The position numbers were made by a program, and so were the translations under genes. From Candidatus Campbellbacteria bacterium RIFOXYC2_FULL_35_25 (GTDB taxonomy: Bacteria; Patescibacteriota; Minisyncoccia; Phycocordibacterales; UBA12079): a DNA stretch of 64,000 nucleotides. Every line of letters starts with the position of its first letter. Position 1 is the stretch's first letter. A model generated the notes under the pieces. It did not search any database. It was given only the letters and a program-made list of their open reading frames with translations, and was not told where the DNA came from. Of this stretch, positions 23,638 to 53,908 are shown one piece after another. The stretch is taken from contig MFAE01000014.1 in assembly GCA_001774495.1 (NCBI GenBank), positions 10,573 through 74,572 of the forward strand, written 5' to 3'.

Positions 23638-23713
23638 AAATTGTTCCAGGTTCAGTGTTGAATTCAAGATTTATGTTTATAGAAACTTGTTTTTGGGGTA
23701 TAATGATAAAATT

Positions 23714-25003: not shown

Positions 25004-25024
25004 ATATTATTTTAAATTATAAGT

Positions 25025-25777: not shown

Positions 25778-25806
25778 GTAAAGGTTGTAAATGATATAAT
25801 GTAAAT

Positions 25807-27507: not shown

Positions 27508-28519
27508 TTTTAAAATAAAACTTTCTTTTGTTAAAGGTTTAAACAAAATTGTTGTAAAAGAAGTCAAAGAAAAAACATCTTATAAAATACTTGAACAAGG
27601 TGTTGATTTTGTTTATTTAAATTTTGATAAAAACTTTGGAAAATTATTTGTTTTAAAAAGTATAGGGTCAGTGAGTATCGTATTAAATGATTTATTGTAT
27701 AATCCTGCGTATTTGTCAAAGCACAAATCTATTTTGAAAGAAGTAATTGATGAAATAATAAATAAAAAGATAGATAAATTTTCTACTTTTAAAGTTTCTT
27801 GCGCTGGTTTAGATTCTCCAGAGGTAAAAAGTATTTCAAAATATATTGGAGATGAGTTTAAATTAAAGGAAAATGTAGAAGCAGATTTAAAAATTAATAT
27901 CGCTAAGGTTAACGATTTATGGGAAGTATCTGTTCAAGCCACAAGAAGGCCACTTTCTTTTAGAAGCTATAAAATTGTTAATATGAGTGGAGCCATGGAT
28001 CCTACAATCGCCTATGCTCTGAATGAGTATTGTAATGTAAAGAAAAAGAAAACATATCTGAATGCTTTTTCTGGAAGTGCGACTTTGTTGATTGAAGCTG
28101 GGTTAAGTAGCCAAGATTTAGAAACTTTAGTTGGTTTCGATAATGATAAATCACATTTGACATTGGCTTATCAAAATATAAAACAAGCAGGTTTAATTAG
28201 AAGGATAAAACTTCTTGAGCATGATATATATGAACAGCCAAAAATAGGGAAATTTGATGTTATCGTAGCAGATTTACCCTTTGGTATGGTTATTTCAAAA
28301 AATGAAGACTTGGAAAAAATGTATACCGCTTTTGTAAATTTTGCCGAAAATTCTTTAGAGGAGAAGGGTGTCTTAGGGGTTTATACTAATGAGTATAGGT
28401 TGTTTAAAGAGGTGTTAGATTTATCTAAATGGAAAATTATCGAAGAAGTTGACTTAAAGCTACCAACAAATGTTAATTCATATTTATATCCAAAAATATT
28501 CGTATGCAAGAAAATATAA
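27494..28519 (+). CDS. Class I SAM-dependent methyltransferase (UPF0020/RlmL-like, DLPFG motif)
   Basis: AFSGSATLLIEAG and VIVADLPFGMV. Confidence 0.5.
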   Translation: MNKNNFKIKLSFVKGLNKIVVKEVKEKTSYKILEQGVDFVYLNFDKNFGKLFVLKSIGSVSIVLNDLLYNPAYLSKHKSILKEVIDEIINKKIDKFSTFKVSCAGLDSPEVKSISKYIGDEFKLKENVEADLKINIAKVNDLWEVSVQATRRPLSFRSYKIVNMSGAMDPTIAYALNEYCNVKKKKTYLNAFSGSATLLIEAGLSSQDLETLVGFDNDKSHLTLAYQNIKQAGLIRRIKLLEHDIYEQPKIGKFDVIVADLPFGMVISKNEDLEKMYTAFVNFAENSLEEKGVLGVYTNEYRLFKEVLDLSKWKIIEEVDLKLPTNVNSYLYPKIFVCKKI

Positions 28520-29844
28520 TCGAATTAGATTTAAAAAAATACTTATTGCAATTTTCAGATAGCAAGGTTGATTTTTATCGTTTCCCTGGAAATTATGGAG
28601 ATTCTTTGATTTATCACGGAACAAAAACTTTATTAGATGAGTTAAATATAGGCATTGATCTTGTTGAAATAGATTCTGATGTTATTAATGATATTTTATT
28701 TATCGATGGTGGAGGGAATTTTGTGGATGAGTATGACGATGTTTATAATTTTCTAGTTAAAAAACACAGAATGTATAAAAAAATCGTATTATTACCTCAT
28801 ACAATTAGAGGAGAAAAAGAAGCTAGACTTATTCAGTCTTTGGATTCGAATGCAACTATTTTTTGTAGGGAAAAAATCACCTATGAATTTGTTAAAAAGA
28901 ATGCAAAAAAAGCAGAGTATTATCTTTGGAGTGATTGTGCTTTTTACAACGATTTAATAAATTACTTAGAAGTTGGTGAGGGAATTTTAAATTCTTTTAG
29001 AGTAGATGTTGAATCAAGCAAAAAAGAATTACCTGCTGATAATGAAGATATCTCATATGACGGATGGTGTATGAAGCCTTTGAAAGACTTTCTTGGAAAA
29101 ATACAAAAATATGAAGAGATTAGAACTGATAGATTACATGTTGCTATAGCTAGTGCTATGCTCGGTAAGAGAGTATTGTTTTATTCTAACTCGTATTATA
29201 AAAATAAGGCAGTTTACGAGTATTCGCTAAAAAAATACCCACAAGTCATATTTGTATATGAAAATGATTATAATCTAATTTCCTATAATCAAATCCGTTC
29301 TGTATTTTTGGAACATCTTAATAGTGAGACTGTTAAAACAAAAGATAATGTTTTGGATTTATTTAGTGAATTAATTTCTATAAACCATAAATTATGGCAC
29401 TTTGAGGACCTAGCAAGAAATTTAGAATCAACTGATAAATTAGTGAGAGAAATTAAAAAAAATATTGATAAATCAAATCAATCAAGAAATGATCTTATCA
29501 GAAAAATTGATTTTAATTTAATTGATCTACTAAACAACAAAGAGAGTAAGGATATAGAAAAGTTTATCTCTGAAAGTCCTGCTGTATTTATAGATAGGCT
29601 TTCAATTATGTTTATAAGAAAGTTTGAGATAGAAAGGCTTGTGTTTTGTATAAATGATAATCAAAATTTGAATGATATTTATATTCAAAAATTAGATGTA
29701 ATTAATAGTCAGATTAATTTTAATGGCAAGTTTTTAGAATCTCTTTTTAATAAGATAAGATTAGGAACAATATTTTTCAAAATATTTAATCCTGTAAAAA
29801 TATATAATGATCATAGAATCCAAAAATATATAGCTAAAACATAA
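28504..29844 (+). CDS. Polysaccharide pyruvyl transferase family protein
   Basis: FPGNYGDSLIYHG motif. Confidence 0.55.
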   Translation: MQENIIELDLKKYLLQFSDSKVDFYRFPGNYGDSLIYHGTKTLLDELNIGIDLVEIDSDVINDILFIDGGGNFVDEYDDVYNFLVKKHRMYKKIVLLPHTIRGEKEARLIQSLDSNATIFCREKITYEFVKKNAKKAEYYLWSDCAFYNDLINYLEVGEGILNSFRVDVESSKKELPADNEDISYDGWCMKPLKDFLGKIQKYEEIRTDRLHVAIASAMLGKRVLFYSNSYYKNKAVYEYSLKKYPQVIFVYENDYNLISYNQIRSVFLEHLNSETVKTKDNVLDLFSELISINHKLWHFEDLARNLESTDKLVREIKKNIDKSNQSRNDLIRKIDFNLIDLLNNKESKDIEKFISESPAVFIDRLSIMFIRKFEIERLVFCINDNQNLNDIYIQKLDVINSQINFNGKFLESLFNKIRLGTIFFKIFNPVKIYNDHRIQKYIAKT

Positions 29845-30130
29845 AAAGAGGGTAGACCTAAGGCACAAAGCATTTTTTACAGATAAAATAAGAGTTGATG
29901 AAAACAAACCTCAATTATATGGGGCACAAGTTAGAAAAAAAGAAAACGGAGAAATAGAATTAATTGAAATAGAAGACAGAGAAAATGTAAATAAAAGGAG
30001 AAAGGAACTTGGGATGGAATCGCTAGAGAAGTATTTGGAACAATTTGGTGTTAAGTAAAAAATTAATAGAAATTCTATTTTTAATTAGATTTATTTAAAA
30101 GTAACTTAAAATTTTAATAATCTCCTACAC

Positions 30131-30385
30131 CTGTGGATTTTTATTTAGTAACTATCGACTATAAACTATAAACTAAAAACTATTCTTTCTCCTCTTTCAA
30201 CTGCACAAAGAAAGTAGAACCTTTTCCTTCTCCTTCCGATTCTGCCCAAACTTTTCCTCCGTGAGCTTTTACGATTTCTTTTATATTTTAACATAATTTT
30301 AAAAATTTTTAGTTTTTTATTGACATTTTTATTGACAGTTACAAGACTTTTGCTTGACAAAATAGTTTAGGTTGTTATTATTTAA
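30131..30385. repeat. Copy B of the HK-3'-end-derived repeat, fused to a module carrying three TTGACA boxes
   Basis: ~100 nt near-identical to the antisense of the HK C-terminal codons, then ttttatattttaacataattttaaaaatttttagttttttattgacatttttattgacag...cttgacaa. Confidence 0.75.
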
Positions 30386-30442
30386 GTAAACACAGTTCTT
30401 TATGGTAAAGTAGTCTTAATTTAAGAAAATAAGGAGAATGCA

Positions 30443-30529
30443 ATGAATACAGAGATGACAATCGAAGAAGTTTTTAAAAAGGAACGTCGCGGGCCAAAGG
30501 GTGGTTGTTCTAACGGAATCGCGGTGTAA
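30443..30529 (+). CDS. 28-aa small peptide MNTEMTIEEVFKKERRGPKGGCSNGIAV; candidate precursor peptide
   Basis: SD aaggagaatgcaATG; own promoter upstream; hairpin terminator gaggtgacgcaagtcacctc downstream; ATP-grasp gene follows. Confidence 0.4.
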   Translation: MNTEMTIEEVFKKERRGPKGGCSNGIAV

Positions 30530-30616
30530 TAACACCAAGCTCTTTTTTAGCAGAGAGGTGACGCAAGTCACCTCTTAACTTTTTTAGAAATCAGATTTTA
30601 ACAAAAGGAGCTTAGA

Positions 30617-31576
30617 ATGTTATTAATATTTTCTAGTACCTTGTCAAAGAAAAGTTTTCAACTCCAATTATTTGTAGAGGAAATGAAAAGAAGAGGTCTT
30701 CCTTGTGTTGTTGTTGATGTTCATGACATCGCTACTAATACAAAATTCTCAATTCAGCATAGTAATGATGGTGCATTTTTGTTTGAAGATGGTCAAAAAA
30801 TAATATCACCCCAAAAAGTTTATGTCATGAATGTTTGGAGAACTGATTCAATTATACGTTTACCCCCAGATTTTGATAAACCTCAATTGATTAGAAACAG
30901 AGTCTCTCAATTCGTAAATGATATTCGTTTTATTTTTGAAGATTGCATGTGGGTTCCTGGGAGAATTGAGGATATTGAGCGGGCTGATTCAAAAATGAGG
31001 CTATTCAAAGAAGCAGTTAGTTGTGGCCTCAATGTTCCTCGTTTTACAATCGATTCGCCTCATTACGATGGTAAGTTTGGAATTCCCGTCTATAAAAAAA
31101 GTCTTGGGTACCCATTTTCTATTTCTTACTCTAAGCAAAAGAAAAAAGAGGTTGCAGTTATTACGACAAATCTTCTTGTTGACAAGGAAAGTGATTCTGT
31201 GGGAGATGGTTTATTGTGGCAGTGGCAAGCTCCAATTTTGTCGAGCAAACAGATTCGGTGTCATGTTGTTGGAAACAAAATTTGGTCGGTAATGTGGGAT
31301 CGTGGTGTTTGTGGCGTTGAAGATTACAGGCATACATCCAACATAAAAAATGAAGTCATCAATTGGAAGCCCCACTCTCTTCCGGCGGAGATTTCTTCTC
31401 AAATTTTAAAATTAATGAAAAACCTTTCTGTGTGTATGGCAAGCCCAGAGTTTCTCGTTGATAAAAACGGGGATTACATATTAATTGACCTTAATCCTTG
31501 TGGTGATTGGTATGGGTTCTTCTCTAAAATTCAACGCAAAGAAATTTTGGACTCGATTATCCAGTTGTGTTGTTAG
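30617..31576 (+). CDS. ATP-grasp ligase (RimK/MdnC-like)
   Basis: FGIPVYKKSLGYPFS, RCHVVGNKIW, and C-terminal EFLVDKNGDYILIDLNPCGDW resembling the ATP-grasp DxNxxP region. Confidence 0.55.
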   Translation: MLLIFSSTLSKKSFQLQLFVEEMKRRGLPCVVVDVHDIATNTKFSIQHSNDGAFLFEDGQKIISPQKVYVMNVWRTDSIIRLPPDFDKPQLIRNRVSQFVNDIRFIFEDCMWVPGRIEDIERADSKMRLFKEAVSCGLNVPRFTIDSPHYDGKFGIPVYKKSLGYPFSISYSKQKKKEVAVITTNLLVDKESDSVGDGLLWQWQAPILSSKQIRCHVVGNKIWSVMWDRGVCGVEDYRHTSNIKNEVINWKPHSLPAEISSQILKLMKNLSVCMASPEFLVDKNGDYILIDLNPCGDWYGFFSKIQRKEILDSIIQLCC

Positions 31577-31631
31577 GGAAAAATTTTTGTTCGAAACTTG
31601 TTGTAACCAGATAAAGGTTGCAACAAGTTTT

Positions 31632-32195
31632 TTAAAAATATTTTTTAACTTTTTCCGTATAATTTGGGTCTGATATATTGTGGTTAACATCGGGAATTAT
31701 AAAAATCTCTTTTTTAGGAGCAATGATTTTTTTGTAAGAAATTTTTGAACGACGAATTGTTAGTGGCCATTCATTACTACCAACTAAAAAAGTTGTTTTT
31801 GCAGATATTTGTTTTGGAAGTCTTGTAGATTTAAATTCCAACATTCTTCTTTTGCCAAGTATTTTAAAAGCCAAATCTGGTAATTTATTAATATCATCTT
31901 CAAAATAAGGGGATAAAGAGCAAGATATAATTTTGTCTATTTTCGTCTTTTCACTTGCTAATAATGCAATGAAAGCACCAAAAGAAAAACCTATCACTGT
32001 TGTATTTTGATGACTAGAACCAACTTTTTTTGAAAAATCACTCACCCAATCAGACATTTTTTTGTATTTCCATTCGGGTTCCCAAAAAACAACATCGTAC
32101 CCCTTTTCTTTTCCAGATTTTATTAGTTGTTTGTATCCTAGATTTTTTGGGGATTCATGATACCCAGGAATTATATATAATTTTTCTTTTTGCAT
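31632..32195 (-). CDS. Small alpha/beta hydrolase (Ser_hydrolase/YdeN-like); paralog 1 of 4
   Basis: LYIIPGYHES N-terminus and GFSFGA nucleophile elbow. Confidence 0.5.
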   Translation of the reverse strand: MQKEKLYIIPGYHESPKNLGYKQLIKSGKEKGYDVVFWEPEWKYKKMSDWVSDFSKKVGSSHQNTTVIGFSFGAFIALLASEKTKIDKIISCSLSPYFEDDINKLPDLAFKILGKRRMLEFKSTRLPKQISAKTTFLVGSNEWPLTIRRSKISYKKIIAPKKEIFIIPDVNHNISDPNYTEKVKKYF

Positions 32196-32242
32196 AATAA
32201 TTACTACTTACTACTTAATACCCAATACTTGATACTTGATAC

Positions 32243-32560
32243 TATTCTTTCTCCTCCTTCAACTGTACAAAGAATGTTGAACCTTTTCCTTCTCCTTCCG
32301 ATTCTGACCCTATCTTAACATCCTTTTCGGATGTTCGGGCGAACATTTTACAACTAAAACAATTTATAAAATTGTTTTAGTGGTAAAATGTTTTAGCCAA
32401 ACCTTTCCTCCAGGGGCTTTTACTATTTCCTTTATATTTTAACATAATTTTAAAAATTTTTAGTTTTTTATTGACAGTATGCTTAAACGAGAGTAGCATT
32501 CAAGCGTAAGAGTTTGTATAGGATAAACTCTGTTCTTTGAGTATTTTTCAGATGGAAACT
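32243..32560. repeat. Copy C of the HK-derived repeat, with the same ~115-nt hairpin insertion as copy A plus the TTGACA promoter module and a palindromic leader
   Basis: ttattgacagtatgcttaaacgagagtagcat then caagcgtaagagtttgtataggataaactct. Confidence 0.75.
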
Positions 32561-32580
32561 TGTTTTAAGGAGGTTTCGTT

Positions 32581-32796
32581 ATGTCAAAGTGGACAGACAA
32601 GGATACGTCGGATTATTCGGGGGATTCCCCGAGTAAGGTTTCATCAGCAGAACATCAGGCTCGCGACGATGCCGAAAGGGCTGGATTATTTGAACGTGGT
32701 AATTCTGAGAAAAACAGGGAGCGTTTCAGCCACACAGATGAATCTGGTAAGGAGGCGACAAGTTTTTGGGAATCCATTTTCGGATCCAAAAAATAA
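32581..32796 (+). CDS. 71-aa hydrophilic small protein, GC-richer than its surroundings
   Basis: SD aaggaggtttcgttATG; terminator ggcgggcaaatggaaaaaatgcccgcc downstream. Confidence 0.45.
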   Translation: MSKWTDKDTSDYSGDSPSKVSSAEHQARDDAERAGLFERGNSEKNRERFSHTDESGKEATSFWESIFGSKK

Positions 32797-32974
32797 GAAG
32801 TGTGGTGTTGATTTACGGCGGGCAAATGGAAAAAATGCCCGCCACTTTTAATTTATCTTGTTTTTGTTGTATTATATTAAGATAAATCATGAACCATAAA
32901 ATGGTTTCTTATAATTAATTTAATGGCGAATAAGTTAAAATTACAAATCATTTTTATAATTTAAAGCAATTAAT

Positions 32975-33511
32975 ATGAATAGAATTTATAATATAAAATA
33001 TACAGATGCCTATTATATTGATTTATCTTACGGGCATAACAAAAAATTACATAAGACAAAATTATCAGAGCATGAGGCTTATGGGTATGCAGAAAAATAT
33101 GGTAATAATATCGTAATTGCTTTTATAAAAGAAGAAAAAGACGATAGAAAAATCTCAGATAAAATAAAAAGAAAGGAGCATCTCATTAAAGGGATTATTG
33201 TTCCGGATACATCCATTCTATCTAAATTAACAAGTTTTAAAAGAAATATTTTCAAAAATATTCCTTTGGGATCAGAGGTGGTTGTTAATTGGAGAGATAT
33301 AGTTATTGTTGCAAATCAATCAAGATATGACTGTTCCACTATGTATACAGAGGGAGTATTTTTTAGAAACGAAGAAGATCATATTGTTTTAAAAAATCCA
33401 GAAACTATTCGTACCTATCCGACACCAGTTACAAATCATCCGATGGAAAAACCTCTTTTTTATGTTATTCCGAAGTCGTTTATCGTTGATATTTCTCCTG
33501 TAAATAATTAG
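32975..33511 (+). CDS. Hypothetical protein
   Basis: 178-aa ORF with local codon usage; no recognisable motifs. Confidence 0.35.
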   Translation: MNRIYNIKYTDAYYIDLSYGHNKKLHKTKLSEHEAYGYAEKYGNNIVIAFIKEEKDDRKISDKIKRKEHLIKGIIVPDTSILSKLTSFKRNIFKNIPLGSEVVVNWRDIVIVANQSRYDCSTMYTEGVFFRNEEDHIVLKNPETIRTYPTPVTNHPMEKPLFYVIPKSFIVDISPVNN

Positions 33512-33512
33512 A

Positions 33513-33758
33513 ATGGAAAAAAATAATTTAAAAAAAGAGAGAGAAGAAAACCAAATTGTAGAAATTATTCTGCACGATGATTCAAATACAATAAAAAAGT
33601 ATAAATGTGTTGGTGTTCTGATGAAAGAAAATGAAAAAACGTTAAGAATTGGATTTAACGCTGTTGAAAATGTTGTTAAAGATTATTTAGATATTAAGAA
33701 AAAAAATATAGTGGATATAAAAACAATTAATCCGAAAGAAATTTCTTCTTTATTTTGA
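33513..33758 (+). CDS. Hypothetical small protein
   Basis: 81-aa ORF immediately following the previous one. Confidence 0.3.
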   Translation: MEKNNLKKEREENQIVEIILHDDSNTIKKYKCVGVLMKENEKTLRIGFNAVENVVKDYLDIKKKNIVDIKTINPKEISSLF

Positions 33759-33785
33759 GGTTAAATTTATTTCTATCAATGCCTA

Positions 33786-34080
33786 AAAAATCCACAGTAG
33801 CCAGGCTACTGTGGATTTTTGTTTAGTAACTAAAAACTATCGACTATAAACTATAAACTAAAAACTATTCTTTCTCTTCCTTCAACTGCACAAAGAAAGT
33901 AGAACCTTTTCCTTCTCCTTCCGATTCTGCCCAAACTTTTCCTCCATGAGCTTTTACGATTTCTTTTATATTTTAACATAATTTTAAAAATTTTTAGTTT
34001 TTTTATTGACAGTATACTTAAATGAGGGTAATATTTAAGTGTAAAAGTTTGTATAGTACAAACTTTGTTCTTTGAGTAGC
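33786..34080. repeat. Copy D of the HK-derived repeat with promoter TTGACA-17-TAATAT and a palindromic leader
   Basis: Full hairpin, micro-repeat, ~100-nt HK 3' antisense, tttttattgacagtatacttaaatgagggtaatat, agtttgtatagtacaaact. Confidence 0.75.
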
Positions 34081-34123
34081 TTTTACTCTAAATTTTTTTG
34101 TGCCAAAAAAGGAGGTGGGAGAA

Positions 34124-34237
34124 TTGGGCAAAGATATTATTGAGAAGATTATTCGTGATTCCTGTTATTTGGATAATTATTGTGACACACCGGGATATAA
34201 TGATCATTCCGGAAGTGATGAACATAACAAAAATTGA
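34124..34237 (+). CDS. 37-aa small peptide (TTG start) MGKDIIEKIIRDSCYLDNYCDTPGYNDHSGSDEHNKN; candidate precursor peptide
   Basis: SD aaggaggtg 5 nt upstream of TTG; hairpin terminator ggagggtgtggtaaaaacaccctcc; radical-SAM gene 74 nt downstream. Confidence 0.4.
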   Translation: MGKDIIEKIIRDSCYLDNYCDTPGYNDHSGSDEHNKN

Positions 34238-34310
34238 TGGAGGAAAAGTTGAAGGAGGGTGTGGTAAAAACACCCTCCTTCTTTAATAAAAAAGGTAATG
34301 AGGTGTTACC

Positions 34311-35399
34311 ATGTTTTATCCGACGCTTAAAGTTGTTTCTAGTAATTGTAATTTAAGATGCGTTTATTGTTATTACAAAGGAATTCACAGAAAAAAACCA
34401 ATAAGGATGAATGATATAACTTTAAAGAGCATAATTCAAAAATTATTAGCACTTAGCGGCGAAGAGAAAGAAGTTCATTTTTACTGGCACGGAGGAGAGC
34501 CTCTTTTAGCCGGAATAGATTTTTATCAAAAGATTATTTTACTGGAAAATGAATTAAATGTGTATGGTAAGAAAATCTGTAACCATATTCAAACAAATGC
34601 CACTTTGTTAACCGATAATTGGGTAGATTTTTTAGTGGGCAATGATTTTAATGTTGGAATTAGTCTTGATGGTCCAAAAGAAATTCAAGACGTCAATCGG
34701 CCAACTATTTCTGGGGGAGGGAGTTTTGATTCTGTGATGAAAGGTTTGAAACTTTTTCAAGAAAGAGAAAAATTTCCTAGTATCATTTCGGTTGTAACCA
34801 ACGAATCCCTCGGTAATGCTAACAAAATCTTTGATTTTTTTGTTGAAAACAAAATTAAAAGATTTTTACCAAAGGATTGCTGTGAAAGAGATGAAACTGG
34901 TAAATTTCTTCCTTTTTCAACAACTCCCGATGAGTATGTTGATTTTTTGATTGAATTATTTGAGTGTTGGATGAGTAAAAACGATCCAACTATCGAAATT
35001 AGAAATCTCTACCAAATAATCAGGGGTGTTGTTGGAGGGAAGACAACCCTTTGTGAGTATAGTGGGAGGTGCCATTTGTTCTTGACGATTGAGTATGATG
35101 GAACAATTGGCGGTTGTGACAGTTTCCCTGTAAAAAATTATCCAATGGGGAACATAAATGATTCCGCTGTTAGCAGTATTTTCGGGAGTCATGGTTATAA
35201 ATCTTTTTTAAGGGATATGGAATCAACAAGATTAGACTGTCACCATTGTGAGTGGTTTGGCAATGTTTGTGGTGGTGGGTGTTTGGGTCATTCCTATTCC
35301 GAACAAAATTCTGCTTGGGGGAAAAATATTTTTTGTACTCCCAAAAAGAGACTCTTTGAATATATAAAAAGAAGAGTCTCCGAAATACAAAATAATTGA
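34311..35399 (+). CDS. Radical SAM enzyme with C-terminal SPASM domain (anSME-like peptide/protein maturase)
   Basis: CNLRCVYC radical-SAM cluster, WHGGEPLL, auxiliary clusters CEYSGRCH and CHHCEWFGNVCGGGC. Confidence 0.8.
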   Translation: MFYPTLKVVSSNCNLRCVYCYYKGIHRKKPIRMNDITLKSIIQKLLALSGEEKEVHFYWHGGEPLLAGIDFYQKIILLENELNVYGKKICNHIQTNATLLTDNWVDFLVGNDFNVGISLDGPKEIQDVNRPTISGGGSFDSVMKGLKLFQEREKFPSIISVVTNESLGNANKIFDFFVENKIKRFLPKDCCERDETGKFLPFSTTPDEYVDFLIELFECWMSKNDPTIEIRNLYQIIRGVVGGKTTLCEYSGRCHLFLTIEYDGTIGGCDSFPVKNYPMGNINDSAVSSIFGSHGYKSFLRDMESTRLDCHHCEWFGNVCGGGCLGHSYSEQNSAWGKNIFCTPKKRLFEYIKRRVSEIQNN

Positions 35400-35453
35400 G
35401 TGAAACGGCAGGTAAACACATTGTTGCCTGTCGTTTTTTAATAAGATTTTAAA

Positions 35454-36434
35454 TTACCTTATTATTTTAATAATTTCACTTATAAAGTGTTTATCTATTT
35501 TTTTATTATCGTTTAAATATTCTTTGATCAGAGGATGTAGGTTTATCGCTATAAAAAAGTACACACCTATTTCATCATTTCTAGTTATGTTGCTTTTGTT
35601 ATTTTTAACAGATATAAAAGTATTTTTGTATTTTTTGAGATTTGAAGACGTTGTTTCTTTCGGGTGTTTGTAAAAATATTTATTTGACAAAAATCCGTGG
35701 TAAGAAAACAAAGAATGAACGACAATTTCTTCCATGGTATTTCTCAGGTCACGATAGGGTATTATTTTACTCTTCCCATTCTCTTCATAGAAATGACTGC
35801 TAATTATTCTAATTTTTTTTCCAAATAGCATGTGTAAAAATTCATGGTAAACAACAGATATTGCGTTGTTCAAAATCTCTTTTCCTGTCTCTGAAAGGTC
35901 GTTGCATTCAATTGTTATCCCTTTGTTTTTTAAGTTAGCTCCACCAGATACAATCTTATTTTTGTAAGGGTGTTGCAGTAGATAAATATCAAATTTTCTT
36001 CTTCTAATTTTACCGAATAAAGTTTCTAAAGCATTTATTATTTTTGGTAAAGTCTTATTAATTTCTTTTGTTAATATTTTAATATTTTTTTCTAAAATCT
36101 GGGAATTCCAGATTTCTTTGAATTTATCTTCAAAAATATCAAAAATTTCTTTTAATTCTCCTAGCTCTGTTTTTGTGACAATCTTTGAAAGATTTTTCCA
36201 AACCTTTTTTTCTTTACTTGTGATAAAAAATAATCCTAAATAATTTGCAAAATTATATTTTTGTAAAATTTTTTTAAATTGTTCTAGTGAATTTTTTTCT
36301 TTTTTTGATAAATCGCCGATTTTATTCAGCCAAACTTCATTATAATTTTTTCTGCAAGAAAAATGCCATTCTGTTAAATTTGAAACAAAGAAAAATTTAT
36401 TACCCATTCTGCTATATTTAATATTAAATTGCAT
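35454..36434 (-). CDS. Hypothetical protein
   Basis: 326-aa ORF, AT-rich and lysine-rich, no motifs recognised. Confidence 0.4.
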   Translation of the reverse strand: MQFNIKYSRMGNKFFFVSNLTEWHFSCRKNYNEVWLNKIGDLSKKEKNSLEQFKKILQKYNFANYLGLFFITSKEKKVWKNLSKIVTKTELGELKEIFDIFEDKFKEIWNSQILEKNIKILTKEINKTLPKIINALETLFGKIRRRKFDIYLLQHPYKNKIVSGGANLKNKGITIECNDLSETGKEILNNAISVVYHEFLHMLFGKKIRIISSHFYEENGKSKIIPYRDLRNTMEEIVVHSLFSYHGFLSNKYFYKHPKETTSSNLKKYKNTFISVKNNKSNITRNDEIGVYFFIAINLHPLIKEYLNDNKKIDKHFISEIIKIIR

Positions 36435-36505
36435 ATCTATACCTGTGGATTTTTATTTAGTAACTACAAACTAAAAACTATCGACTATAAACTATAAACT
36501 AAAAA

Positions 36506-38092
36506 CTATTCTTTCTCCTCTTTCAACTGCACAAAGAAAGTTGAACCTTTTCCTTCTCCTTCCGATTCTGCCCAAACTTTTCCTCCGTGTGCTTTTACGA
36601 TTTCTTTTACTAAATAGAGACCCAAGCCCGTTCCCATCACACTAACGCTGTTGGCATTTTCGAGTCTGATAAATTTCTTGAAGATTTTGTGAGCTTCCTT
36701 CTTTGGTAATCCGATACCAGTATCTTGTATTTTTAATAGTATTTTATGAGCTTTTTTTGATAGGCTAATATGAATAGAACCCTTCGGAGTATATTTGATT
36801 GAATTATCAATCAAATTGGTGACAATTTGTCTTATTTTTTCTGGGTCAATTTGTGAAAAGAATATTCCTTCTTGTAATTCAAATTTCATTTTTAGGCCTT
36901 TTTCTTCAATAACATGTTTCATGTCATTAACGACTTCTTGAACTATGGGTTTAATATCGGCTTTAACAAAATTAAATTCAATTTTACCTCTCTCTATCCT
37001 TGAAAGGTTAAGGAAGTCGTCTACGATAAAAGCTAGATTGCTACTTGATTGAAAAATTCTTTTAATTATTTCAGAAATTTTTTCAGATGTCGGTCCGTAT
37101 GATCCTTCCATCACCATTGAAGAGTAGCCCTTTATGGAAGCAATAGGGGCTCTTAATTGGTGAGAGGCAACGGAAACAAAATCAGATTTTTGTTGGTCAA
37201 GTTTTTTAAGTCTAATATTCGCTTTTTCAAGTTCCTCTGCAAGTAATTCGATTTTTCTTTTCGCTTGTATTTCTTTGAAAATACTTCTGTTCAGGAGAAC
37301 CACAAAAATGACCATCATGACAAATAAGGCAAAATTTATCATCCATTCATCTACCGAATTCGTTGGCTTCAAAAAATTAAACAAGAAGATTAAGGCCATT
37401 GCTCCAGAAAAAAGTTGAGCAGAGATTATTTTTGTATTTAAAAATTTGTATTTAAGGATAGCGTAACTTACAAAAAATACATATAAGATTATAAAATAAT
37501 TTCCAAAAGGATAAATATTGAAAAGTTGAGGAAAAAAGTTTGTAATTCCCCCACTGAAACCAATAAATCCAGCAATTATTTGGTTTCTTATCTGCCCACG
37601 GTAAAGATAATCTTTTTTATTTTTTAAGTATGTTTTTATTAGATACAGTAAAGAGATTATTATTATAATTATAAAAAAGGTCGGAAATAAAAAATAATAT
37701 TTTCCGGGATCTACCCAATAAAAATCAAAAGTTTTTACCACTCCTAGTTTGAACAATGGAGAAAAACTAAAAATTGCTAATAATCCAGTGAGAAAAAGGA
37801 CAGCTTTTTTAAAATTAGTTTTTTTTATTTCTAAAAAATTAAAAATAAAATTAAGATATAGAATAGGAATAAAAATTGCTGTAAAGTCTAAGCAATATAA
37901 CCATAATAAAGCTGAATTTTCTGTTTGGGAGTAAGCCCCTTTGTAAAGAAAAATGCTCCAAAAAGCAATAAATATAGATAAAATTAACCAAGATTTATTT
38001 AGTTTTGATCTTCTGTTGCTAGAGTATACAATTAAACCAAAACCGATACTGGTAAAAAAAGTTATAATACTTGTTATTCCAAATAATGTCAT
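36506..38092 (-). CDS. Sensor histidine kinase (polytopic N-terminal membrane domain, HisKA and HATPase_c)
   Basis: SHQLRAPIASIKGY H-box; GTGLGLYLVKEIVKAHGGKVWAESEGEGKGSTFF G-box region; its 3' end is the source of the repeat family. Confidence 0.8.
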   Translation of the reverse strand: MTLFGITSIITFFTSIGFGLIVYSSNRRSKLNKSWLILSIFIAFWSIFLYKGAYSQTENSALLWLYCLDFTAIFIPILYLNFIFNFLEIKKTNFKKAVLFLTGLLAIFSFSPLFKLGVVKTFDFYWVDPGKYYFLFPTFFIIIIIISLLYLIKTYLKNKKDYLYRGQIRNQIIAGFIGFSGGITNFFPQLFNIYPFGNYFIILYVFFVSYAILKYKFLNTKIISAQLFSGAMALIFLFNFLKPTNSVDEWMINFALFVMMVIFVVLLNRSIFKEIQAKRKIELLAEELEKANIRLKKLDQQKSDFVSVASHQLRAPIASIKGYSSMVMEGSYGPTSEKISEIIKRIFQSSSNLAFIVDDFLNLSRIERGKIEFNFVKADIKPIVQEVVNDMKHVIEEKGLKMKFELQEGIFFSQIDPEKIRQIVTNLIDNSIKYTPKGSIHISLSKKAHKILLKIQDTGIGLPKKEAHKIFKKFIRLENANSVSVMGTGLGLYLVKEIVKAHGGKVWAESEGEGKGSTFFVQLKEEKE

Positions 38093-44102: not shown

Positions 44103-44585
44103 ATGGAAAAAACTTTATATATTATTCCAGGGCTTGGAGAAACTTGTCGGCGTAAACCATATCAATTATTAGCAAAAAAAGCCAAAGAGAAGGGTTATGA
44201 AGTAATCTTTAAGAATGTAGATTGGAATCAAAAATTATCTTTACAAACTTTTTCTGTATCCAAAGACGACATAATTTTTGGTTTTTCTTTGGGGGCTGTT
44301 TTGGCATGGTTGGTAGCACAGGATTATAAATGTAGACACATAATTTTAGCTTCAATGACACCTCATTATTCTTGGAAAGATAAAGAAATAAAAAAAGCAC
44401 TAATTGATTTATTAGGCTTAAAATTTGTAAATGATGTTATAAAAAAACTTGATTCAAAACATCAGGCCAAAAGACAAACAATAATGTATGGGGATCTTGA
44501 GAATGAAAAAGGTGATATTATTGTATCTAAAACAGAGCATGAATTAACTGAAAATTATCTTAAGGAAATTGAGCAAATAATTTAA
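44103..44585 (+). CDS. Small alpha/beta hydrolase, paralog 2
   Basis: LYIIPGLGET and GFSLGA. Confidence 0.5.
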   Translation: MEKTLYIIPGLGETCRRKPYQLLAKKAKEKGYEVIFKNVDWNQKLSLQTFSVSKDDIIFGFSLGAVLAWLVAQDYKCRHIILASMTPHYSWKDKEIKKALIDLLGLKFVNDVIKKLDSKHQAKRQTIMYGDLENEKGDIIVSKTEHELTENYLKEIEQII

Positions 44586-51637: not shown

Positions 51638-51654
51638 ATAATTTTAATTATATT

Positions 51655-51796: not shown

Positions 51797-51959
51797 TGTG
51801 AATATCCCCGAAATAATGGTAACGGGTATTAACCCAGGTAAAAAACCCACTGGCTTTTATCTTGATGTTTCGCAAGGTTATAATGAATGTGAAAATGATA
51901 ATTGCGGTGGCGGTTTTGGGGATTGCTCTGATTGTGGAGCTGATCCAGATCCAAACTAA
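51797..51959 (+). pseudogene. Cysteine-rich small peptide gene with an apparent frameshift at the A-run at 51899-51901. The GTG-initiated frame stops at 51929-51931; the Cys-rich end (NCGGGFGDCSDCGADPDPN) is in the adjacent frame.
   Basis: Removing one A from gataaattgc would give the continuous 53-aa product NIPEIMVTGINPGKKPTGFYLDVSQGYNECENDNCGGGFGDCSDCGADPDPN; a sequencing error or a genuine frameshift. Confidence 0.3.
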
Positions 51960-52072: not shown

Positions 52073-52696
52073 ATGAAATTTAATATATATTATTCCATTG
52101 ATTTTGATGTTGATCGGGTCTTAGAAACTATAAATAAATTTGAATGGTTTAAATCCAATAATTATAGTGTAATTTTACCTAAATACCTTGATTTATCTGA
52201 TATAAAAAAAATAACAAAAGAGGATGTCAAAAAAGTAATACTAAAAGAATATAACGAGCAAGATTATTTAAAACAAAAAGAGTATTTAGAAAATAATTTA
52301 GAAAAGTTGATATTAAATGAAAATATTGAAGAAAAAATTAAAAGCACAACCCTTGTTTTATCAAAAGACTATAATATCTATTTTACAAAATATGGTGTTG
52401 GTGGGAGTTACCATTTGCCAAATAAAATAGTAATAAACATAAATCGTTGTTTCGAATTTGGTTTACTTAGGACGATAATTCATGAAATTATTCATCTCTC
52501 AATCCAGCTTTTTGTTGAAAAATATAATATTAATCATTGGACAAAAGAAAGATTGGTTGATTTGTTATTTGATAAATTTGCTCCCAAAATAAATAAAATT
52601 CAAACGATTTCTATTGATACAAATTTAATTGATGAAAGTTTTGAAAAAAATTATCCAAATGTAGAAAAAATAATAAGTGAGATAAGAGAAAAATAG
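52073..52696 (+). CDS. HExxH motif protein (putative metallopeptidase)
   Basis: RTIIHEIIHLSIQ. Confidence 0.4.
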   Translation: MKFNIYYSIDFDVDRVLETINKFEWFKSNNYSVILPKYLDLSDIKKITKEDVKKVILKEYNEQDYLKQKEYLENNLEKLILNENIEEKIKSTTLVLSKDYNIYFTKYGVGGSYHLPNKIVININRCFEFGLLRTIIHEIIHLSIQLFVEKYNINHWTKERLVDLLFDKFAPKINKIQTISIDTNLIDESFEKNYPNVEKIISEIREK

Positions 52697-52861: not shown

Positions 52862-53908
52862 ATGACTGCTATAAGAAAAGTAGATCAAAACAATGAAATT
52901 ATTCCCCGCTCCGCTTGGATAACAGTTAATCGTGCTTGCAATTTTCGTTGTAGCGGATGCTATGCTAAAAATACAGGGTATGGTTTAAAGCAAAGCATGA
53001 GTTTTGAACTTTCAAAAAAGATCGCAAACCTTGTTTCATCGTTAGGGATTTCAAGAATTACAATAATTGGAGGAGAACCTACTTTATGGAATAATTTATC
53101 TAATTTCAATAAATTTTGTATAGATAAAGGTTTGCAAACTAGAATTGTTACAAATGCAATGAGATTTGGAGATGATAATTTTTGGTTAGATTATACAAAA
53201 AGCCCAAATACAAGAGCCGGAGTATCTATAAAAGCTTTTGATAAGAAAAGCTTAAAGGATATTACGGGAATTGATTCATTTGAATTTGTTAAAAAAGGTT
53301 TGCAGAGAGCTATTTCACATTTTAAATGTGGGGTTAGCACTGTTTATTCTACAACTTCGGCTAGTCATATACTTAATATTACTAAATTCGCTATGGATTG
53401 TGGGGCAAAAAGTATAAGTATAAGCCCTTGTACGCCAAGATTTTGTAATGGAAAAGTAGACGGCGCTTATGTTGTAGAGCCAGTAGCAATGACAAAACAT
53501 CTTATTAAAATCTATCCAAAACTTGTTGAGATCACTAATGGTAATATTGTATTTTTAATGAAATTACCTCTGTGTTTGTGGCCGGATGATTTTGTTAAAA
53601 ATCTAATAGAGGAAAATCAAATTAACACTATTTGCCAATTACAACATAGGAGTGGCATTATTTTTGATGTTGATGGAAAACTTATGTTATGTAATAGTCT
53701 TTTCGATTACCCTGTTGGTAAATATGGGGTTGATTTTTTTAACAAAAAATCGTTAATTGCTTTATTAAACAACCGGAAGACTCTTGATGTTTATGATAGG
53801 TTAACATCTTATCCATCAAAAAAATGTATGAATTGTAATCGTTACGATGTTTGTGCCGGTGGATGTCCTTTATTTTGGGCTCTTTTTGACCCAGAAAGTT
53901 TAATTTAA
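52862..53908 (+). CDS. Radical SAM enzyme with C-terminal SPASM-like cysteine cluster
   Basis: CNFRCSGCY, IIGGEPTL, C-terminal CMNCNRYDVCAGGCP. Confidence 0.75.
   Translation: MTAIRKVDQNNEIIPRSAWITVNRACNFRCSGCYAKNTGYGLKQSMSFELSKKIANLVSSLGISRITIIGGEPTLWNNLSNFNKFCIDKGLQTRIVTNAMRFGDDNFWLDYTKSPNTRAGVSIKAFDKKSLKDITGIDSFEFVKKGLQRAISHFKCGVSTVYSTTSASHILNITKFAMDCGAKSISISPCTPRFCNGKVDGAYVVEPVAMTKHLIKIYPKLVEITNGNIVFLMKLPLCLWPDDFVKNLIEENQINTICQLQHRSGIIFDVDGKLMLCNSLFDYPVGKYGVDFFNKKSLIALLNNRKTLDVYDRLTSYPSKKCMNCNRYDVCAGGCPLFWALFDPESLI

What the first reader, a model, noticed from the sequence alone, without database searches (positions are those of the whole stretch)
34111..35399. TTG-initiated 37-aa Cys-containing peptide directly upstream of a radical-SAM/SPASM enzyme: sacti/ranthipeptide-like candidate
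MGKDIIEKIIRDSCYLDNYCDTPGYNDHSGSDEHNKN has AAGGAGGTG 5 nt before a TTG start, the copy-D promoter upstream and a hairpin terminator downstream. 74 nt later a 362-aa enzyme begins with CNLRCVYC (radical-SAM cluster), GGEPLL, and two auxiliary Cys clusters ending CHHCEWFGNVCGGGC (SPASM). SPASM radical-SAM enzymes next to short Cys-bearing peptides are the hallmark of thioether-crosslinked RiPPs. The alternative is an anSME-type sulfatase maturase, but no sulfatase is nearby.
Basis: partly seen in the sequence, partly recalled or inferred. Interest (0 to 1): 0.7.

Follow-up and report, generated by a model that had tools for sequence, protein, structure and literature searches.

The report
Cyclophane-type peptide gene cluster, not thioether
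The small peptide and the radical-SAM enzyme are a real peptide-modification pair, conserved with a third metalloprotein gene in many tiny uncultured (CPR) bacteria. The conserved residues point to aromatic-to-side-chain carbon rings (a triceptide), not to the cysteine thioether bridges first proposed.

Summary
A TTG-started 37-aa ORF (34124..34237) lies behind a strong RBS and a repeated TTGACA promoter cassette. It is followed by a 12-bp hairpin and, 73 nt later, a 362-aa radical-SAM/SPASM enzyme (34311..35399).

- **Real precursor.** The peptide recurs beside homologous enzymes in about 35 fetched loci and 43 database clusters (45 unique cores), with synonymous codon turnover.
- **No conserved Cys.** What is invariant is three aromatic-x-X motifs: [H/Y]-x-D, [Y/H]-N-D and H-x-[K/R] (or [H/F]-x-N). 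This is the triceptide signature. Tyr-to-Asp (YxdB) and His-to-Lys (HtkB) rings have been demonstrated elsewhere.
- **Enzyme.** It has no RRE domain and is closest to anaerobic sulfatase maturases, but scores below their curated cut-off. It falls outside their clade in an NJ tree, and no sulfatase is nearby; two true anSMEs checked as controls each have one.
- **Third partner.** A convergent 326-aa HExxH zincin-fold protein (35454..36434) with no Pfam or NCBIfam model sits next to this rSAM family in about 21 of 25 CPR genome loci. Its role, leader peptidase or oxygenase, is unresolved.

Verdict: a CPR-restricted, uncurated variant of the triceptide class. The chemistry is inferred, not shown.

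The parts
33835..34010 (+). Promoter cassette (third of three copies). About 130 nt are copied from the 3' end of the histidine-kinase gene (opposite strand) and fused to a shared AT-rich segment ending in TTGACA.
   Evidence: Repeat families D1/D2. Four-way alignment with 30120-30446, 32200-32583 and the source copy at 36432-36700.
34006..34034 (+). Sigma-70-like promoter, TTGACA-17 nt-TAATAT.
   Evidence: 10 of 12 consensus positions, the best site in 33700-36600. A consensus match only; function not shown.
34044..34066 (+). Palindrome in the 5' UTR (aaagtttgtatagtacaaacttt). Also present in cassette B, with changes on both arms that keep the pairing.
   Evidence: Sequence reading; repeat D4, 82% identity. 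Role unknown.
34109..34117 (+). Ribosome-binding site AAGGAGGTG, 6 nt before the TTG start.
   Evidence: Sequence.
34124..34237 (+). Precursor peptide gene, 37 aa: MGKDIIEKIIRDSCYLDNYCDTPGYNDHSGSDEHNKN. The leader carries the family motif G-K-x-I-I-x-K-I.
   Evidence: Conserved next to rSAM and/or HExxH homologs. 43 database clusters. Synonymous codon turnover at invariant residues.
34163..34234 (+). Predicted core, C14 to N37. It holds four aromatic-x-X motifs: Y15-L-D17, Y19-C-D21, Y25-N-D27 and H34-N-K36. The last three correspond to the three family-wide motifs.
   Evidence: 45 unique cores: aromatic-1 is H 33 / Y 12, and X3 is D in 45 of 45. Aromatic-2 is Y 41 / H 4, but that position was fixed to Y/H/F/W by the regex that selected the cores. 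The third motif is H-x-K/R in 37 and [HF]-x-N-[WF]-x-N in 6. Permutation test: 16 motifs observed against 5.5 expected, 0 of 20,000 shuffles reach this.
34251..34281 (+). 12-bp G+C-rich hairpin between the precursor and the enzyme, probably an attenuator or mRNA stabiliser.
   Evidence: z = -6.9. A comparable hairpin follows the precursor stop codon in all 13 loci that gave a result, with no sequence conservation.
34311..35399 (+). Radical-SAM/SPASM maturase, 362 aa, with no RRE domain. Predicted three-residue cyclophane-forming enzyme, anSME-like.
   Evidence: Pfam and NCBIfam. PDB: anSMEcpe 203 bits, ChlB 94, CteB 64. NJ tree and HMM scores separate it from true anSMEs.
35404..35440 (.). Imperfect hairpin followed by a T-run, between the convergent rSAM and HExxH genes (possible bidirectional terminator).
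   Evidence: Sequence reading only. Not flagged by the scan.
35454..36434 (-). 326-aa HExxH metalloprotein (H197-E198-x-x-H201 plus E236), zincin-like fold. The conserved third gene of the cassette.

Best explanation
This is a three-gene RiPP cassette of the triceptide (three-residue cyclophane) type, belonging to a family that appears restricted to CPR/Patescibacteria.

1. **Precursor.** The 37-aa peptide is the precursor. Its N-terminal helix motif (G-K-x-I-I-x-K-I) serves as the leader. The C-terminal core carries aromatic-x-X triplets: YLD, YCD, YND and HNK.
2. **Ring formation.** The anSME-like radical-SAM/SPASM enzyme cleaves SAM reductively. The 5'-deoxyadenosyl radical abstracts a hydrogen from C-beta of the third residue (Asp or Lys). 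The carbon radical adds to the ring of the Tyr or His two residues upstream, and the auxiliary clusters take the electron on re-aromatisation. Each ring costs 2 Da, so 3 to 4 rings give -6 to -8 Da.
3. **Stoichiometry.** The hairpin after the precursor gene keeps the precursor in excess over the enzyme.
4. **Third gene.** The convergent HExxH zincin-fold protein acts on the same peptide. I favour leader removal (about 55%) over ChlH-like oxidative tailoring (about 35%).

Shown here: the gene anatomy, the family-wide co-occurrence, the motif conservation and the separation from sulfatase maturases. Inferred: the cross-link chemistry, the atoms joined, the role of the HExxH protein and the biological function of the product.
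For: **Precursor conservation, reached by three routes**
- Through rSAM homologs: L002, L003/4, L005, L006, L013, L014.
- Through a DNA pattern for the core: 5 of 5 metagenome hits sit beside the rSAM.
- Through the HExxH protein in CPR genomes.

**Motif evidence**
- In 45 unique cores, aromatic-1 is only H or Y, X2 takes 9 different residues and X3 is Asp in 45 of 45. The second motif is Y (41) or H (4) followed by N then D (44) or N (1); my regex allowed only Y/H/F/W at its first position. The third is H-x-K/R, or [H/F]-x-N-[W/F]-x-N.
- More divergent members keep the logic with Trp (L020 WDD/WGD/WSD; L038 WDK/WDD/WQD) or YGD repeats (L013).
- Aromatic-x-D is enriched 3-fold over composition-preserving shuffles (16 against 5.5, and 31 against 10.6; 0 of 20,000 shuffles in each set). 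The control registers D-x-aromatic, aromatic-D and aromatic-x-x-D are not enriched, apart from D-x-aromatic being marginal in the second set (16 against 10.6, 3.8% of shuffles).

**Experimental precedents**
- YxdB makes a Tyr-C3 to Asp-C-beta link on YxD (PMC11002830).
- HtkB makes a His-C2 to Lys-C-beta link on HTK (PMC11499958).
- MicB modifies YSK, HAS and FTK motifs (PMC12912966).

**Enzyme**
- About 360 aa, SPASM domain, no RRE, like known triceptide synthases.
- After anSME, the best HMMs are DynA, GrrM/OscB and YhhB, all aryl-to-C-beta cross-linkers.
- The PDB order is anSME, then ChlB (a cyclophane synthase), then CteB (a thioether synthase).
- In a 135-leaf tree, all 32 context-positive rSAMs lie outside the 53-leaf clade that holds all 7 annotated anSMEs.

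**Coding and expression**
- Invariant P, D, Y, N and G columns use 2 to 5 synonymous codons.
- A hairpin follows the precursor stop codon in all 13 loci that gave a result.
Against: - No chemistry was measured. C-C, C-N (as in dynobactin's His-N to C-beta link) and C-O links on the same residues cannot be told apart from sequence.
- The enzyme reaches no curated cyclophane-synthase model: GrrM/OscB 181 bits against 310, YhhB 178 against 445, XyeB 92 against 450, FxsB 135 against 370. Its single best match is the sulfatase maturase family.
- I could not obtain the YxdB or HtkB sequences for a direct comparison.
- The cyclophane model does not explain several conserved residues: the Pro two residues after the first Asp, the [S/T]-G after the second motif, and the Cys at position -1 in 42% of cores.
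- The sequences are related, so the permutation result overstates independence.
Confidence: 0.65

Rival explanations
1. Same residues, different bond. The enzyme abstracts the C-beta hydrogen of Asp or Lys but forms a C-N link (His nitrogen to C-beta, as DynA does in dynobactin) or a C-O link (daropeptide-like ether), not a C-C cyclophane. It may do so at some motifs only.
For: The DynA model is the second-best family for the whole clade, at 218-289 bits. His is the commonest aromatic at motifs 1 and 3. Daropeptide maturases and three-residue cyclophane enzymes are reported to share a common origin (PMC12912966).
Against: All characterised aromatic-x-X enzymes acting on Tyr or His with Asp, Lys, Arg or Ala at position 3 make C-C bonds. 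The daropeptide motif aromatic-x-aromatic is not conserved here. The DynA score is far below its 450-bit cut-off.
Confidence: 0.13
2. One reading: a thioether RiPP (sacti- or ranthipeptide). The enzyme joins the Cys sulfur to a carbon of another residue, for example Cys14 or Cys20 to Asp C-beta, as PapB does on C-x3-D motifs.
For: The window peptide has two Cys. 19 of 45 cores have a Cys immediately before the first [H/Y]-x-D motif, giving C-x-x-D. A C-beta radical on Asp could in principle be captured by a thiolate. My own knowledge: PapB makes Cys-to-Asp thioethers.
Against: Cys is absent from 26 of 45 cores at that position and from many whole peptides (L002, L003, L009-L011), whereas the aromatic and the Asp are invariant. 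The enzyme has no RRE domain. PapB scores 137.6 bits against 340, the SCIFF maturase 79.8 against 425, and CteB only 64 bits in the PDB search. At most this is an additional modification in a sub-family.
Confidence: 0.07
3. An anSME-type two-electron oxidation. The enzyme oxidises a Ser, Thr or Cys (for example the conserved [S/T] in D-H-S-G) to formylglycine or a ketone. The target is either the peptide or a sulfatase encoded elsewhere.
For: anSME is the best HMM (278.5 bits) and the best PDB match (203 bits). The anSMEcpe residues Tyr24 and Asp277 (roles recalled from the anSMEcpe structure paper, not checked here) align with Tyr and Asp in this enzyme. A [S/T]-G follows the second motif in most cores.
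Against: The score is below the curated cut-off, while true anSMEs score 407-421. The enzyme lies outside the anSME clade. There is no C/S-x-P-x-R motif in the peptide and no sulfatase signature in the window. No Sulfatase Pfam hit appears among the called genes of the 11 related loci for which gene tables were returned; the other loci were not scanned. Both control anSMEs have an adjacent sulfatase. The Ser position also takes Gly.
Confidence: 0.07
4. The small ORF is not a substrate: it is a chance ORF or a regulatory leader peptide, and the enzyme acts on something else.
For: The ORF is short, starts with TTG, and was not called as a gene in several assemblies (e.g. L042).
Against: 43 database clusters and 45 unique cores. 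The leader and core are conserved down to about 30% identity of the partner enzymes. Synonymous codons turn over at invariant residues. The peptide is always adjacent to the rSAM or the HExxH gene.
Confidence: 0.02

Closest known systems
Triceptides and their three-residue cyclophane-forming radical-SAM enzymes (YxdB on YxD, HtkB on HTK, YhhB, HaaB, MicB, ChlB)
   Same: Both have a precursor with C-terminal aromatic-x-X motifs whose middle residue is free. Both use an RRE-less rSAM/SPASM enzyme of about 360 aa. The window's YxD and HxK motifs have direct experimental precedents (Tyr-C3 to Asp-C-beta; His-C2 to Lys-C-beta). Several rings per peptide occur in both. An HExxH protein in the cluster has a precedent in ChlB.
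   Different: The enzyme reaches no curated cyclophane-synthase HMM and sits next to the sulfatase maturases in sequence space. The precursor family ([H/Y]-x-D-G-P-[G/S]-Y-N-D-x-[S/T]-G-x-x-x-H-x-K) matches no Pfam or NCBIfam model. The HExxH partner is a separate gene of an unmodelled family. The system was found almost only in CPR/Patescibacteria MAGs. Nothing here has been characterised experimentally.
Anaerobic sulfatase-maturating enzymes (anSMEcpe, AtsB; TIGR03942)
   Same: This is the closest sequence and structure relative: 203 bits to PDB 4k36, with the same length and the same three-cluster Cys pattern. Both chemistries begin with abstraction of a C-beta hydrogen.
   Different: The score is below the family cut-off (278 against 349). 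It forms a separate tree clade, has no sulfatase and no C/S-x-P-x-R substrate motif nearby, and is always paired with a small peptide and usually with the HExxH protein.
DynA (dynobactin maturase)
   Same: Second-best HMM. It is also anSME-like and RRE-less, and it cross-links an aromatic residue to the C-beta of the residue two positions on.
   Different: 219 bits against a 450 cut-off. The dynobactin core (WNSNVHSYRF, recalled from my own knowledge and not checked here) is unrelated, and DynA makes one C-C and one N-C link.
Alpha-KG-dependent HExxH hydroxylases of RiPP clusters (ChlH domain of ChlB, BpmH, PflC/PosC; IPR026337 / TIGR04267)
Ranthipeptides and sactipeptides (PapB/freyrasin, CteB, AlbA)
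   Same: Both pair an rSAM/SPASM maturase with a short precursor. The C-x-x-D arrangement in 42% of cores recalls PapB's Cys-x3-Asp thioether motif.
   Different: No RRE domain, no invariant Cys, and low HMM scores (PapB 138 against 340). The conserved feature is an aromatic residue, not Cys.

Membership tests
Triceptide (three-residue cyclophane) RiPP system | The precursor core contains aromatic(1)-X2-X3 motifs, where X3 has a C-beta hydrogen. | tested here: met
   Window: YLD, YCD, YND, HNK. In 45 unique cores the aromatic positions hold only H/Y (motif 1, unconstrained), Y/H (motif 2, fixed to Y/H/F/W by the selecting regex) and H/F/W (motif 3), and X3 holds only D, K, R or N. Enrichment over shuffles.
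Triceptide (three-residue cyclophane) RiPP system | An rSAM enzyme with a SPASM/twitch auxiliary-cluster domain is encoded with the precursor. | tested here: met
   Pfam Radical_SAM plus SPASM. Adjacent to the precursor in the window and in all 5 metagenome pattern hits.
Triceptide (three-residue cyclophane) RiPP system | A C(sp2)-C(sp3) bond between the aromatic ring and C-beta of X3 (-2 Da per motif). | not testable with these tools
   Needs co-expression, MS/MS and NMR.
Triceptide (three-residue cyclophane) RiPP system | The enzyme belongs to a curated cyclophane-synthase family (GrrM/OscB TIGR04261, YhhB NF041707, XyeB TIGR04496, FxsB TIGR04269, AmcB NF041718). | tested here: not met
   181 bits against 310, 178 against 445, 92 against 450, 135 against 370, 129 against 425. 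This shows it is not a member of those subfamilies. The class itself spans many sequence clusters (PMC11499958).
Anaerobic sulfatase maturase (TIGR03942) | Score at or above the curated cut-off of 349.45 bits. | tested here: not met
   Window 278.5. The other context-linked homologs scanned score 294-334. Annotated anSMEs score 407-421.
Anaerobic sulfatase maturase (TIGR03942) | A sulfatase substrate with a C/S-x-P/A-x-R motif is encoded nearby or in the genome. | tested here: not met
   No sulfatase signature in the 6-frame translation of the 64-kb window. No Sulfatase Pfam hit among the called genes of the 11 related loci for which gene tables were returned. Controls P0076 and P0066 each have PF00884 adjacent. 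The rest of the genome was not seen.
Sactipeptide / ranthipeptide system | Conserved Cys residues in the precursor core act as sulfur donors. | tested here: not met
   No invariant Cys. The Cys at position -1 is present in 19 of 45 cores, and many peptides have no Cys.
Sactipeptide / ranthipeptide system | The maturase has an N-terminal RRE (PqqD-like) domain. | tested here: not met
   CxxxCxxC begins at residue 13 and the Radical_SAM domain at residue 9, so there is no N-terminal extension.
Sactipeptide / ranthipeptide system | The maturase belongs to a curated thioether-maturase family (PapB, SCIFF/CteB, CcpM, RumMC). | tested here: not met
   137.6 bits against 340, 79.8 against 425, 108.6 against 500, 61.1 against 720.
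Alpha-KG-dependent HExxH hydroxylase (IPR026337 / TIGR04267), for the 326-aa partner | Sequence membership of the family model. | tested here: not met
   No NCBIfam hit at E <= 10 for the window protein or 9 other members. I take TIGR04267 to be the NCBIfam counterpart of IPR026337 and did not check that release 20 holds it. No sequence match to solved ChlH or SjiH at E <= 10.
Alpha-KG-dependent HExxH hydroxylase (IPR026337 / TIGR04267), for the 326-aa partner | HExxH plus a carboxylate (2-His-1-carboxylate) on a zincin-like fold. | tested here: met
Alpha-KG-dependent HExxH hydroxylase (IPR026337 / TIGR04267), for the 326-aa partner | Fe(II)/alpha-KG/O2-dependent hydroxylation of the modified peptide. 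| not testable with these tools
   Needs an in vitro assay.

The most novel reading that the evidence does not exclude
The cassette defines a distinct, CPR-wide RiPP class. In it, an anSME-derived radical-SAM enzyme and a previously unmodelled stand-alone HExxH zincin-fold enzyme family (at least 704 cluster representatives) together make a His/Tyr/Asp-rich polycyclic peptide.

In this genome the peptide is one of three small-peptide operons wired to the same duplicated promoter cassette, next to a 7TM histidine kinase. That arrangement would fit a peptide-signalling or metal-binding island used by an episymbiotic bacterium to interact with its host or its kin. The HExxH enzyme may perform chemistry not yet described for this fold.
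Probability: 0.25. Interest if true: 0.75.

Novelty: new variant of a known kind. Interest (0 to 1): 0.55.

Why it matters
- **Unexpected in CPR.** CPR/Patescibacteria have very small genomes and are thought to encode little secondary metabolism. Yet the same three-gene peptide cassette was found in MAGs labelled Saccharibacteria, Paceibacteria, Woesebacteria, Wolfebacteria, Jorgensenbacteria, Kerfeldbacteria and Minisyncoccia. Keeping it implies a function worth the cost, possibly in host or kin interaction.
- **New enzymes.** It supplies an untapped clade of His/Tyr-to-Asp/Lys cyclophane-forming enzymes lying right at the boundary with sulfatase maturases. That is useful for asking how C-beta oxidation evolved into C-C cross-linking.
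- **New family.** It brings with it a sizeable unmodelled HExxH family.
- **Annotation.** These enzymes score best on the 'anaerobic sulfatase maturase' model but fall below its cut-off, so they risk that label or end up as a generic 'radical SAM protein'. The precursors are often not called as genes at all.

Tried and rejected
- **Thioether reading.** Rejected as the class-defining chemistry, because Cys is not conserved.
- **Sulfatase maturase.** Rejected on HMM cut-off, tree position, absence of a sulfatase and positive controls.
- **H-S-G as a fourth motif.** Rejected. Gly has no C-beta, and the His varies (H, K, N, Q, S).
- **Frame error.** Searches scanned the peptide one base out of frame. 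Redone, with no family hit.
- **Genome scan with the core DNA pattern.** 0 hits. The pattern was too strict: it required H or N after Y-N-D, and L017 has K. The family was later found in genomes through the HExxH protein.
- **Literature.** The JACS 2022 triceptide landscape paper is not held and the HtkB paper's supplement is not held. So the YxdB, HtkB and HaaB sequences could not be compared, and the HtkB D214 specificity position could not be checked.
- **AFDB Foldseek.** The library was unavailable.
- **Foldseek against the PDB.** Nothing significant for the HExxH model (best E = 0.15).
- **Profile comparison.** The HExxH family against the window's second, 207-aa HExxH protein gave a weak result only (probability 15%).
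- **First tree query.** The midpoint-rooted MRCA of all HExxH-context rSAMs spanned the whole tree because of the divergent L022. Re-asked from the anSME side, the split is clean. The tree is neighbour-joining without bootstrap.
- **Literature search for CPR RiPPs of this kind.** It found only general BGC surveys.
Full report
**1. Observation**

- An RBS AAGGAGGTG (34109-34117) lies 6 nt before a TTG at 34124. The 37-aa ORF runs 34124..34237 and encodes MGKDIIEKIIRDSCYLDNYCDTPGYNDHSGSDEHNKN.
- A 12-bp hairpin lies at 34251-34281. The 75-nt spacer folds at -28.2 kcal/mol, z = -6.9.
- 73 nt after the stop codon a 362-aa ORF begins (34311..35399). It has CNLRCVYC at residues 13-20, GGEPLL, and a complete SPASM cysteine pattern. 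Pfam finds Radical_SAM at 9-166 and SPASM at 258-314.
- The promoter TTGACA-17-TAATAT (34006-34034) is the best site in the region, matching 10 of 12 positions.
- The promoter belongs to a cassette present three times (30150-30325, 32212-32476, 33835-34010). Each copy carries about 130 nt copied from the 3' end of the histidine-kinase gene at 36506..38092.
- In some searches I scanned the peptide one base out of frame. The correct peptide matches no Pfam or NCBIfam family.

**2. Is the peptide real?**

Yes. Three independent routes lead to it.
- *Through the enzyme.* Contigs encoding the closest rSAM homologs (63-45% identity) carry a related small ORF beside the enzyme:
  - L002: ..SLSHNDTPGYNDHSGDGDHNKG
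  - L003/4: ..FLTHTDGPGYNDHSGDPDHNKSA
  - L005: ..FQHGDDPGYNDHSGSDDHTKS
  - L006: ..PCHGDGPSYNDNTGDPGHNKHVD
- *Through the peptide.* A degenerate DNA pattern for the core has 0 expected chance matches in the window. It found 5 metagenome contigs, and in all 5 the match lies in a small ORF next to the rSAM.
- *Through the third gene.* See section 5.

A profile of 15 such peptides retrieved 43 protein clusters from 5.8 billion, all unnamed. Invariant amino-acid columns (P, D, Y, N, G) use 2 to 5 different synonymous codons across 14 loci, which indicates selection on the protein. The TTG start is confirmed by homologs that begin ATG-G-K at the same position (L001 and L012).

**3. What is conserved, and what is not**

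I analysed 45 unique cores.
- The residue at the first aromatic position is His (33) or Tyr (12) and nothing else.
- The next residue takes 9 different identities.
- The third residue is Asp in 45 of 45.
- The second motif is Tyr (41) or His (4), then Asn, then Asp (44) or Asn (1). My selection regex allowed only Y, H, F or W at its first position, so that column is not an independent result.
- The third motif is H-x-K/R in 37 cores and [H/F]-x-N-[W/F]-x-N in 6.
- More distant members keep the rule with other aromatics. L020 has WDD, WDD, WSE, HSD, WGD and WSD. L038 has WDK, WDD and WQD. L013 has YGD three times plus YSD. L031 has HSD, HID, YGD, YID and HRD.

A composition-preserving permutation test on the last 25 residues gives these results.
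- Peptides found through rSAM homology: 16 aromatic-x-D motifs against 5.5 expected.
- Peptides found through the HExxH gene: 31 against 10.6.
- In both sets, 0 of 20,000 shuffles reach the observed count.
- The control registers D-x-aromatic, aromatic-D and aromatic-x-x-D are not enriched. The one exception is D-x-aromatic in the HExxH-derived set, which is marginal (16 against 10.6; 3.8% of shuffles reach it).
- The sequences are related, so this is not a true probability.

Cysteine is not conserved. The only recurrent Cys is the residue just before the first motif, in 19 of 45 cores. Many family peptides have none.

The window peptide carries four motifs: Y15-L-D17, Y19-C-D21, Y25-N-D27 and H34-N-K36.

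**4. The enzyme**

- Its best NCBIfam model is the anaerobic sulfatase maturase TIGR03942, at 278.5 bits, below the 349.45 cut-off.
- Next come DynA (219.5), GrrM/OscB (181.2) and YhhB (178.2). All three cross-link an aromatic ring to the C-beta of the residue two positions on.
- Thioether maturases score far lower: PapB 137.6, SCIFF maturase 79.8.
- The seven other context-linked homologs scanned score 294-334 on TIGR03942. Three source-annotated anSMEs score 407-421.
- In the PDB, anSMEcpe gives 203 bits, the cyclophane synthase ChlB 94, and the thioether synthase CteB 64.
- In a neighbour-joining tree of 135 sequences, the 7 annotated anSMEs fall in a 53-leaf clade with no peptide- or HExxH-linked member. 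All 32 context-positive enzymes lie in the complement. The window enzyme sits in a 14-leaf clade: 12 leaves have the HExxH neighbour, one has the precursor beside it but no HExxH gene within its short contig, and one lies on a truncated contig. The tree has no bootstrap support.
- The window has no sulfatase signature in any frame. Two anSME-clade controls each have a PF00884 sulfatase gene beside them.
- There is no N-terminal RRE domain.

**5. The third gene**

- Convergent with the rSAM lies a 326-aa ORF (35454..36434, minus strand) with no Pfam or NCBIfam hit.
- A homolog is adjacent in 9 of the 10 close loci that have enough flanking sequence.
- Its profile finds 704 cluster representatives at E <= 0.001 among 1.84 billion.
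- Across 146 diverse members, H197, E198, H201 and E236 are 99-100% conserved. G164, Y306, D314 and W35 are conserved at 90% or more. No Arg or Lys reaches 85%.
- Scanning one genome per species with this family returned 26 loci, almost all in Patescibacteria/CPR MAGs. About 21 of 25 evaluable loci have a homolog of the window rSAM (30-49% identity) next to the HExxH gene. Most have a precursor directly upstream of the HExxH gene.
- The conserved unit is therefore precursor, rSAM and HExxH protein. In the window the precursor precedes the rSAM. In L006, L008 and most genome loci it precedes the HExxH gene.

**6. Mechanism (inferred)**

The pattern is an aromatic residue, a free residue, then a residue with a C-beta methylene. 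That is the defining substrate motif of triceptides (PMC11499958).

Both window motif types have experimental precedents:
- YxdB links Tyr-C3 to Asp-C-beta (PMC11002830).
- HtkB links His-C2 to Lys-C-beta on HTK.
- MicB modifies YSK, HAS and FTK in one peptide (PMC12912966).

I therefore propose the following steps.
1. Reductive SAM cleavage produces the 5'-deoxyadenosyl radical.
2. The radical abstracts a hydrogen from C-beta of Asp or Lys.
3. The carbon radical adds to the Tyr or His ring two residues upstream.
4. Oxidation and deprotonation through the auxiliary clusters restore aromaticity.
5. The result is 3 to 4 rings in this peptide (-6 to -8 Da).

The hairpin after the precursor gene is found in all 13 loci that gave a result, with no sequence conservation. 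It fits the usual RiPP arrangement of excess precursor over enzyme.

For the HExxH protein I lean toward a leader peptidase.
- It has the gluzincin catalytic set HExxH, Glu and Tyr, and a GGAN strand 33 residues upstream that resembles the M1 GxMEN strand.
- It has no conserved basic residue for alpha-KG, although I do not know which residues bind alpha-KG in ChlH.
- From general knowledge of CPR physiology, these organisms are largely anaerobic and lack a TCA cycle.

A ChlH-like hydroxylase of Asp or His in the preformed rings is a serious alternative (PMC12636437). PflC/PosC-like oxidative cleavage is another.

**7. Comparison and novelty**

The system works like a triceptide cluster, but it belongs to no curated family.
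- The enzyme reaches no cyclophane-synthase or anSME cut-off.
- The precursor has no model.
- The HExxH partner is an unmodelled family and is a separate gene, not a fusion as in ChlB.

The distribution is essentially CPR. I could not check whether the 2022 triceptide landscape study already lists these sequences, because the paper is not held. Open-access searches found no description. I rate it a new variant of a known kind.

The window's own taxon is inferred from its nearest relatives, its 32.7% G+C and its synteny with L006. It was not determined directly.

**8. Unexplained**

- The Cys at position -1 in 42% of cores.
- The invariant Pro two residues after the first Asp.
- The [S/T]-G after the second motif.
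- A 'QQ' 3 to 5 residues upstream of the first motif in many leaders.
- Why promoter cassettes containing a kinase-gene fragment drive three different small-peptide operons.

Noticed in passing
window 30120-30446, 32200-32583, 33800-34127; source copy 36432-36700: There are three promoter cassettes. Each is a copy of about 130 nt from the 3' end of the histidine-kinase gene, fused to a shared AT-rich TTGACA promoter. Each drives the same layout: small ORF, hairpin, then enzyme gene(s). The island looks as if it was built by segmental duplication with promoter capture.
   Followed up: partly
window 30444-31576: Cassette A drives a 28-aa ORF (30444..30530, MNTEMTIEEVFKKERRGPKGGCSNGIAV), a hairpin, and an ATP-grasp enzyme (30617..31576). 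The enzyme weakly matches the MvdC/MvdD graspetide maturases (68 bits, far below cut-off). This is a possible second RiPP pair.
   Followed up: no
window 32581-33758: Cassette B drives a 71-aa Ser/Asp/Glu/Lys-rich ORF (32581..32796), a hairpin, and then proteins of 178 and 81 aa. None of the three has a family match.
   Followed up: no
window 34044-34066 and 32513-32535: A 5'-UTR palindrome is shared by cassettes C and B, with changes on both arms that preserve pairing (aaagttt..aaacttt against agagttt..aaactct). It could be a regulatory hairpin or an operator.
   Followed up: no
window 50411-56288: A second radical-SAM cluster is present. It contains an M16 peptidase, a Cys-rich small ORF (51798..51959, ..CENDNCGGGFGDCSDCGADPDPN), a 207-aa HExxH protein (52073..52696), an rSAM enzyme with C-terminal Cys motifs but no Pfam SPASM hit (52862..53908) and an MMPL transporter. 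Homologous rSAMs occur in L006 (followed by a Cys-rich ORF and a 152-aa HExxH protein) and in L034. This cluster is a better thioether-peptide candidate than the finding itself.
   Followed up: partly
L044 (ERZ4902915, coverage 1.8) against window 23548/33786 and 35643: One contig with the identical peptide and rSAM joins window position 23548 to 33786 at the repeated cassette, and breaks off inside the HExxH gene at 35643. This is either a strain-level deletion mediated by the repeats or a chimeric low-coverage assembly.
   Followed up: partly
L006 5700-5783, 8426-8605, 10508-10600 (source gene 2734-3486): A related genome, syntenic for kinase, HAD and acyltransferase genes, shows the same trick with a different source. 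Fragments of the 5' end of the acyltransferase gene are repeated, and one of them lies just upstream of the precursor gene.
   Followed up: no
precursor family (P0277-P0319; window residue C14): A Cys immediately precedes the first [H/Y]-x-D motif in 19 of 45 unique cores, and it is usually the only Cys in the peptide. P0319 carries two tandem cores.
   Followed up: partly
window 31632-32195 (-), 44103-44585, 45503-46030, 46061-46549: There are four small ORFs (160-187 aa) sharing an N-terminal 'YIIPGLGE'-type motif. Only 31632..32195 was scanned, and it matches Pfam Ser_hydrolase weakly. One sits inside the peptide island, and L001 also has an alpha/beta-hydrolase gene beside its cassette.
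   Followed up: no
L013 3434-9098: A more distant relative of the rSAM (37% identity), with a YGD-repeat precursor, is followed by a transglutaminase-like protease gene. About 2 kb further on lie a YcaO gene and a nitroreductase gene. This suggests hybrid or neighbouring RiPP pathways in that CPR genome.
   Followed up: no
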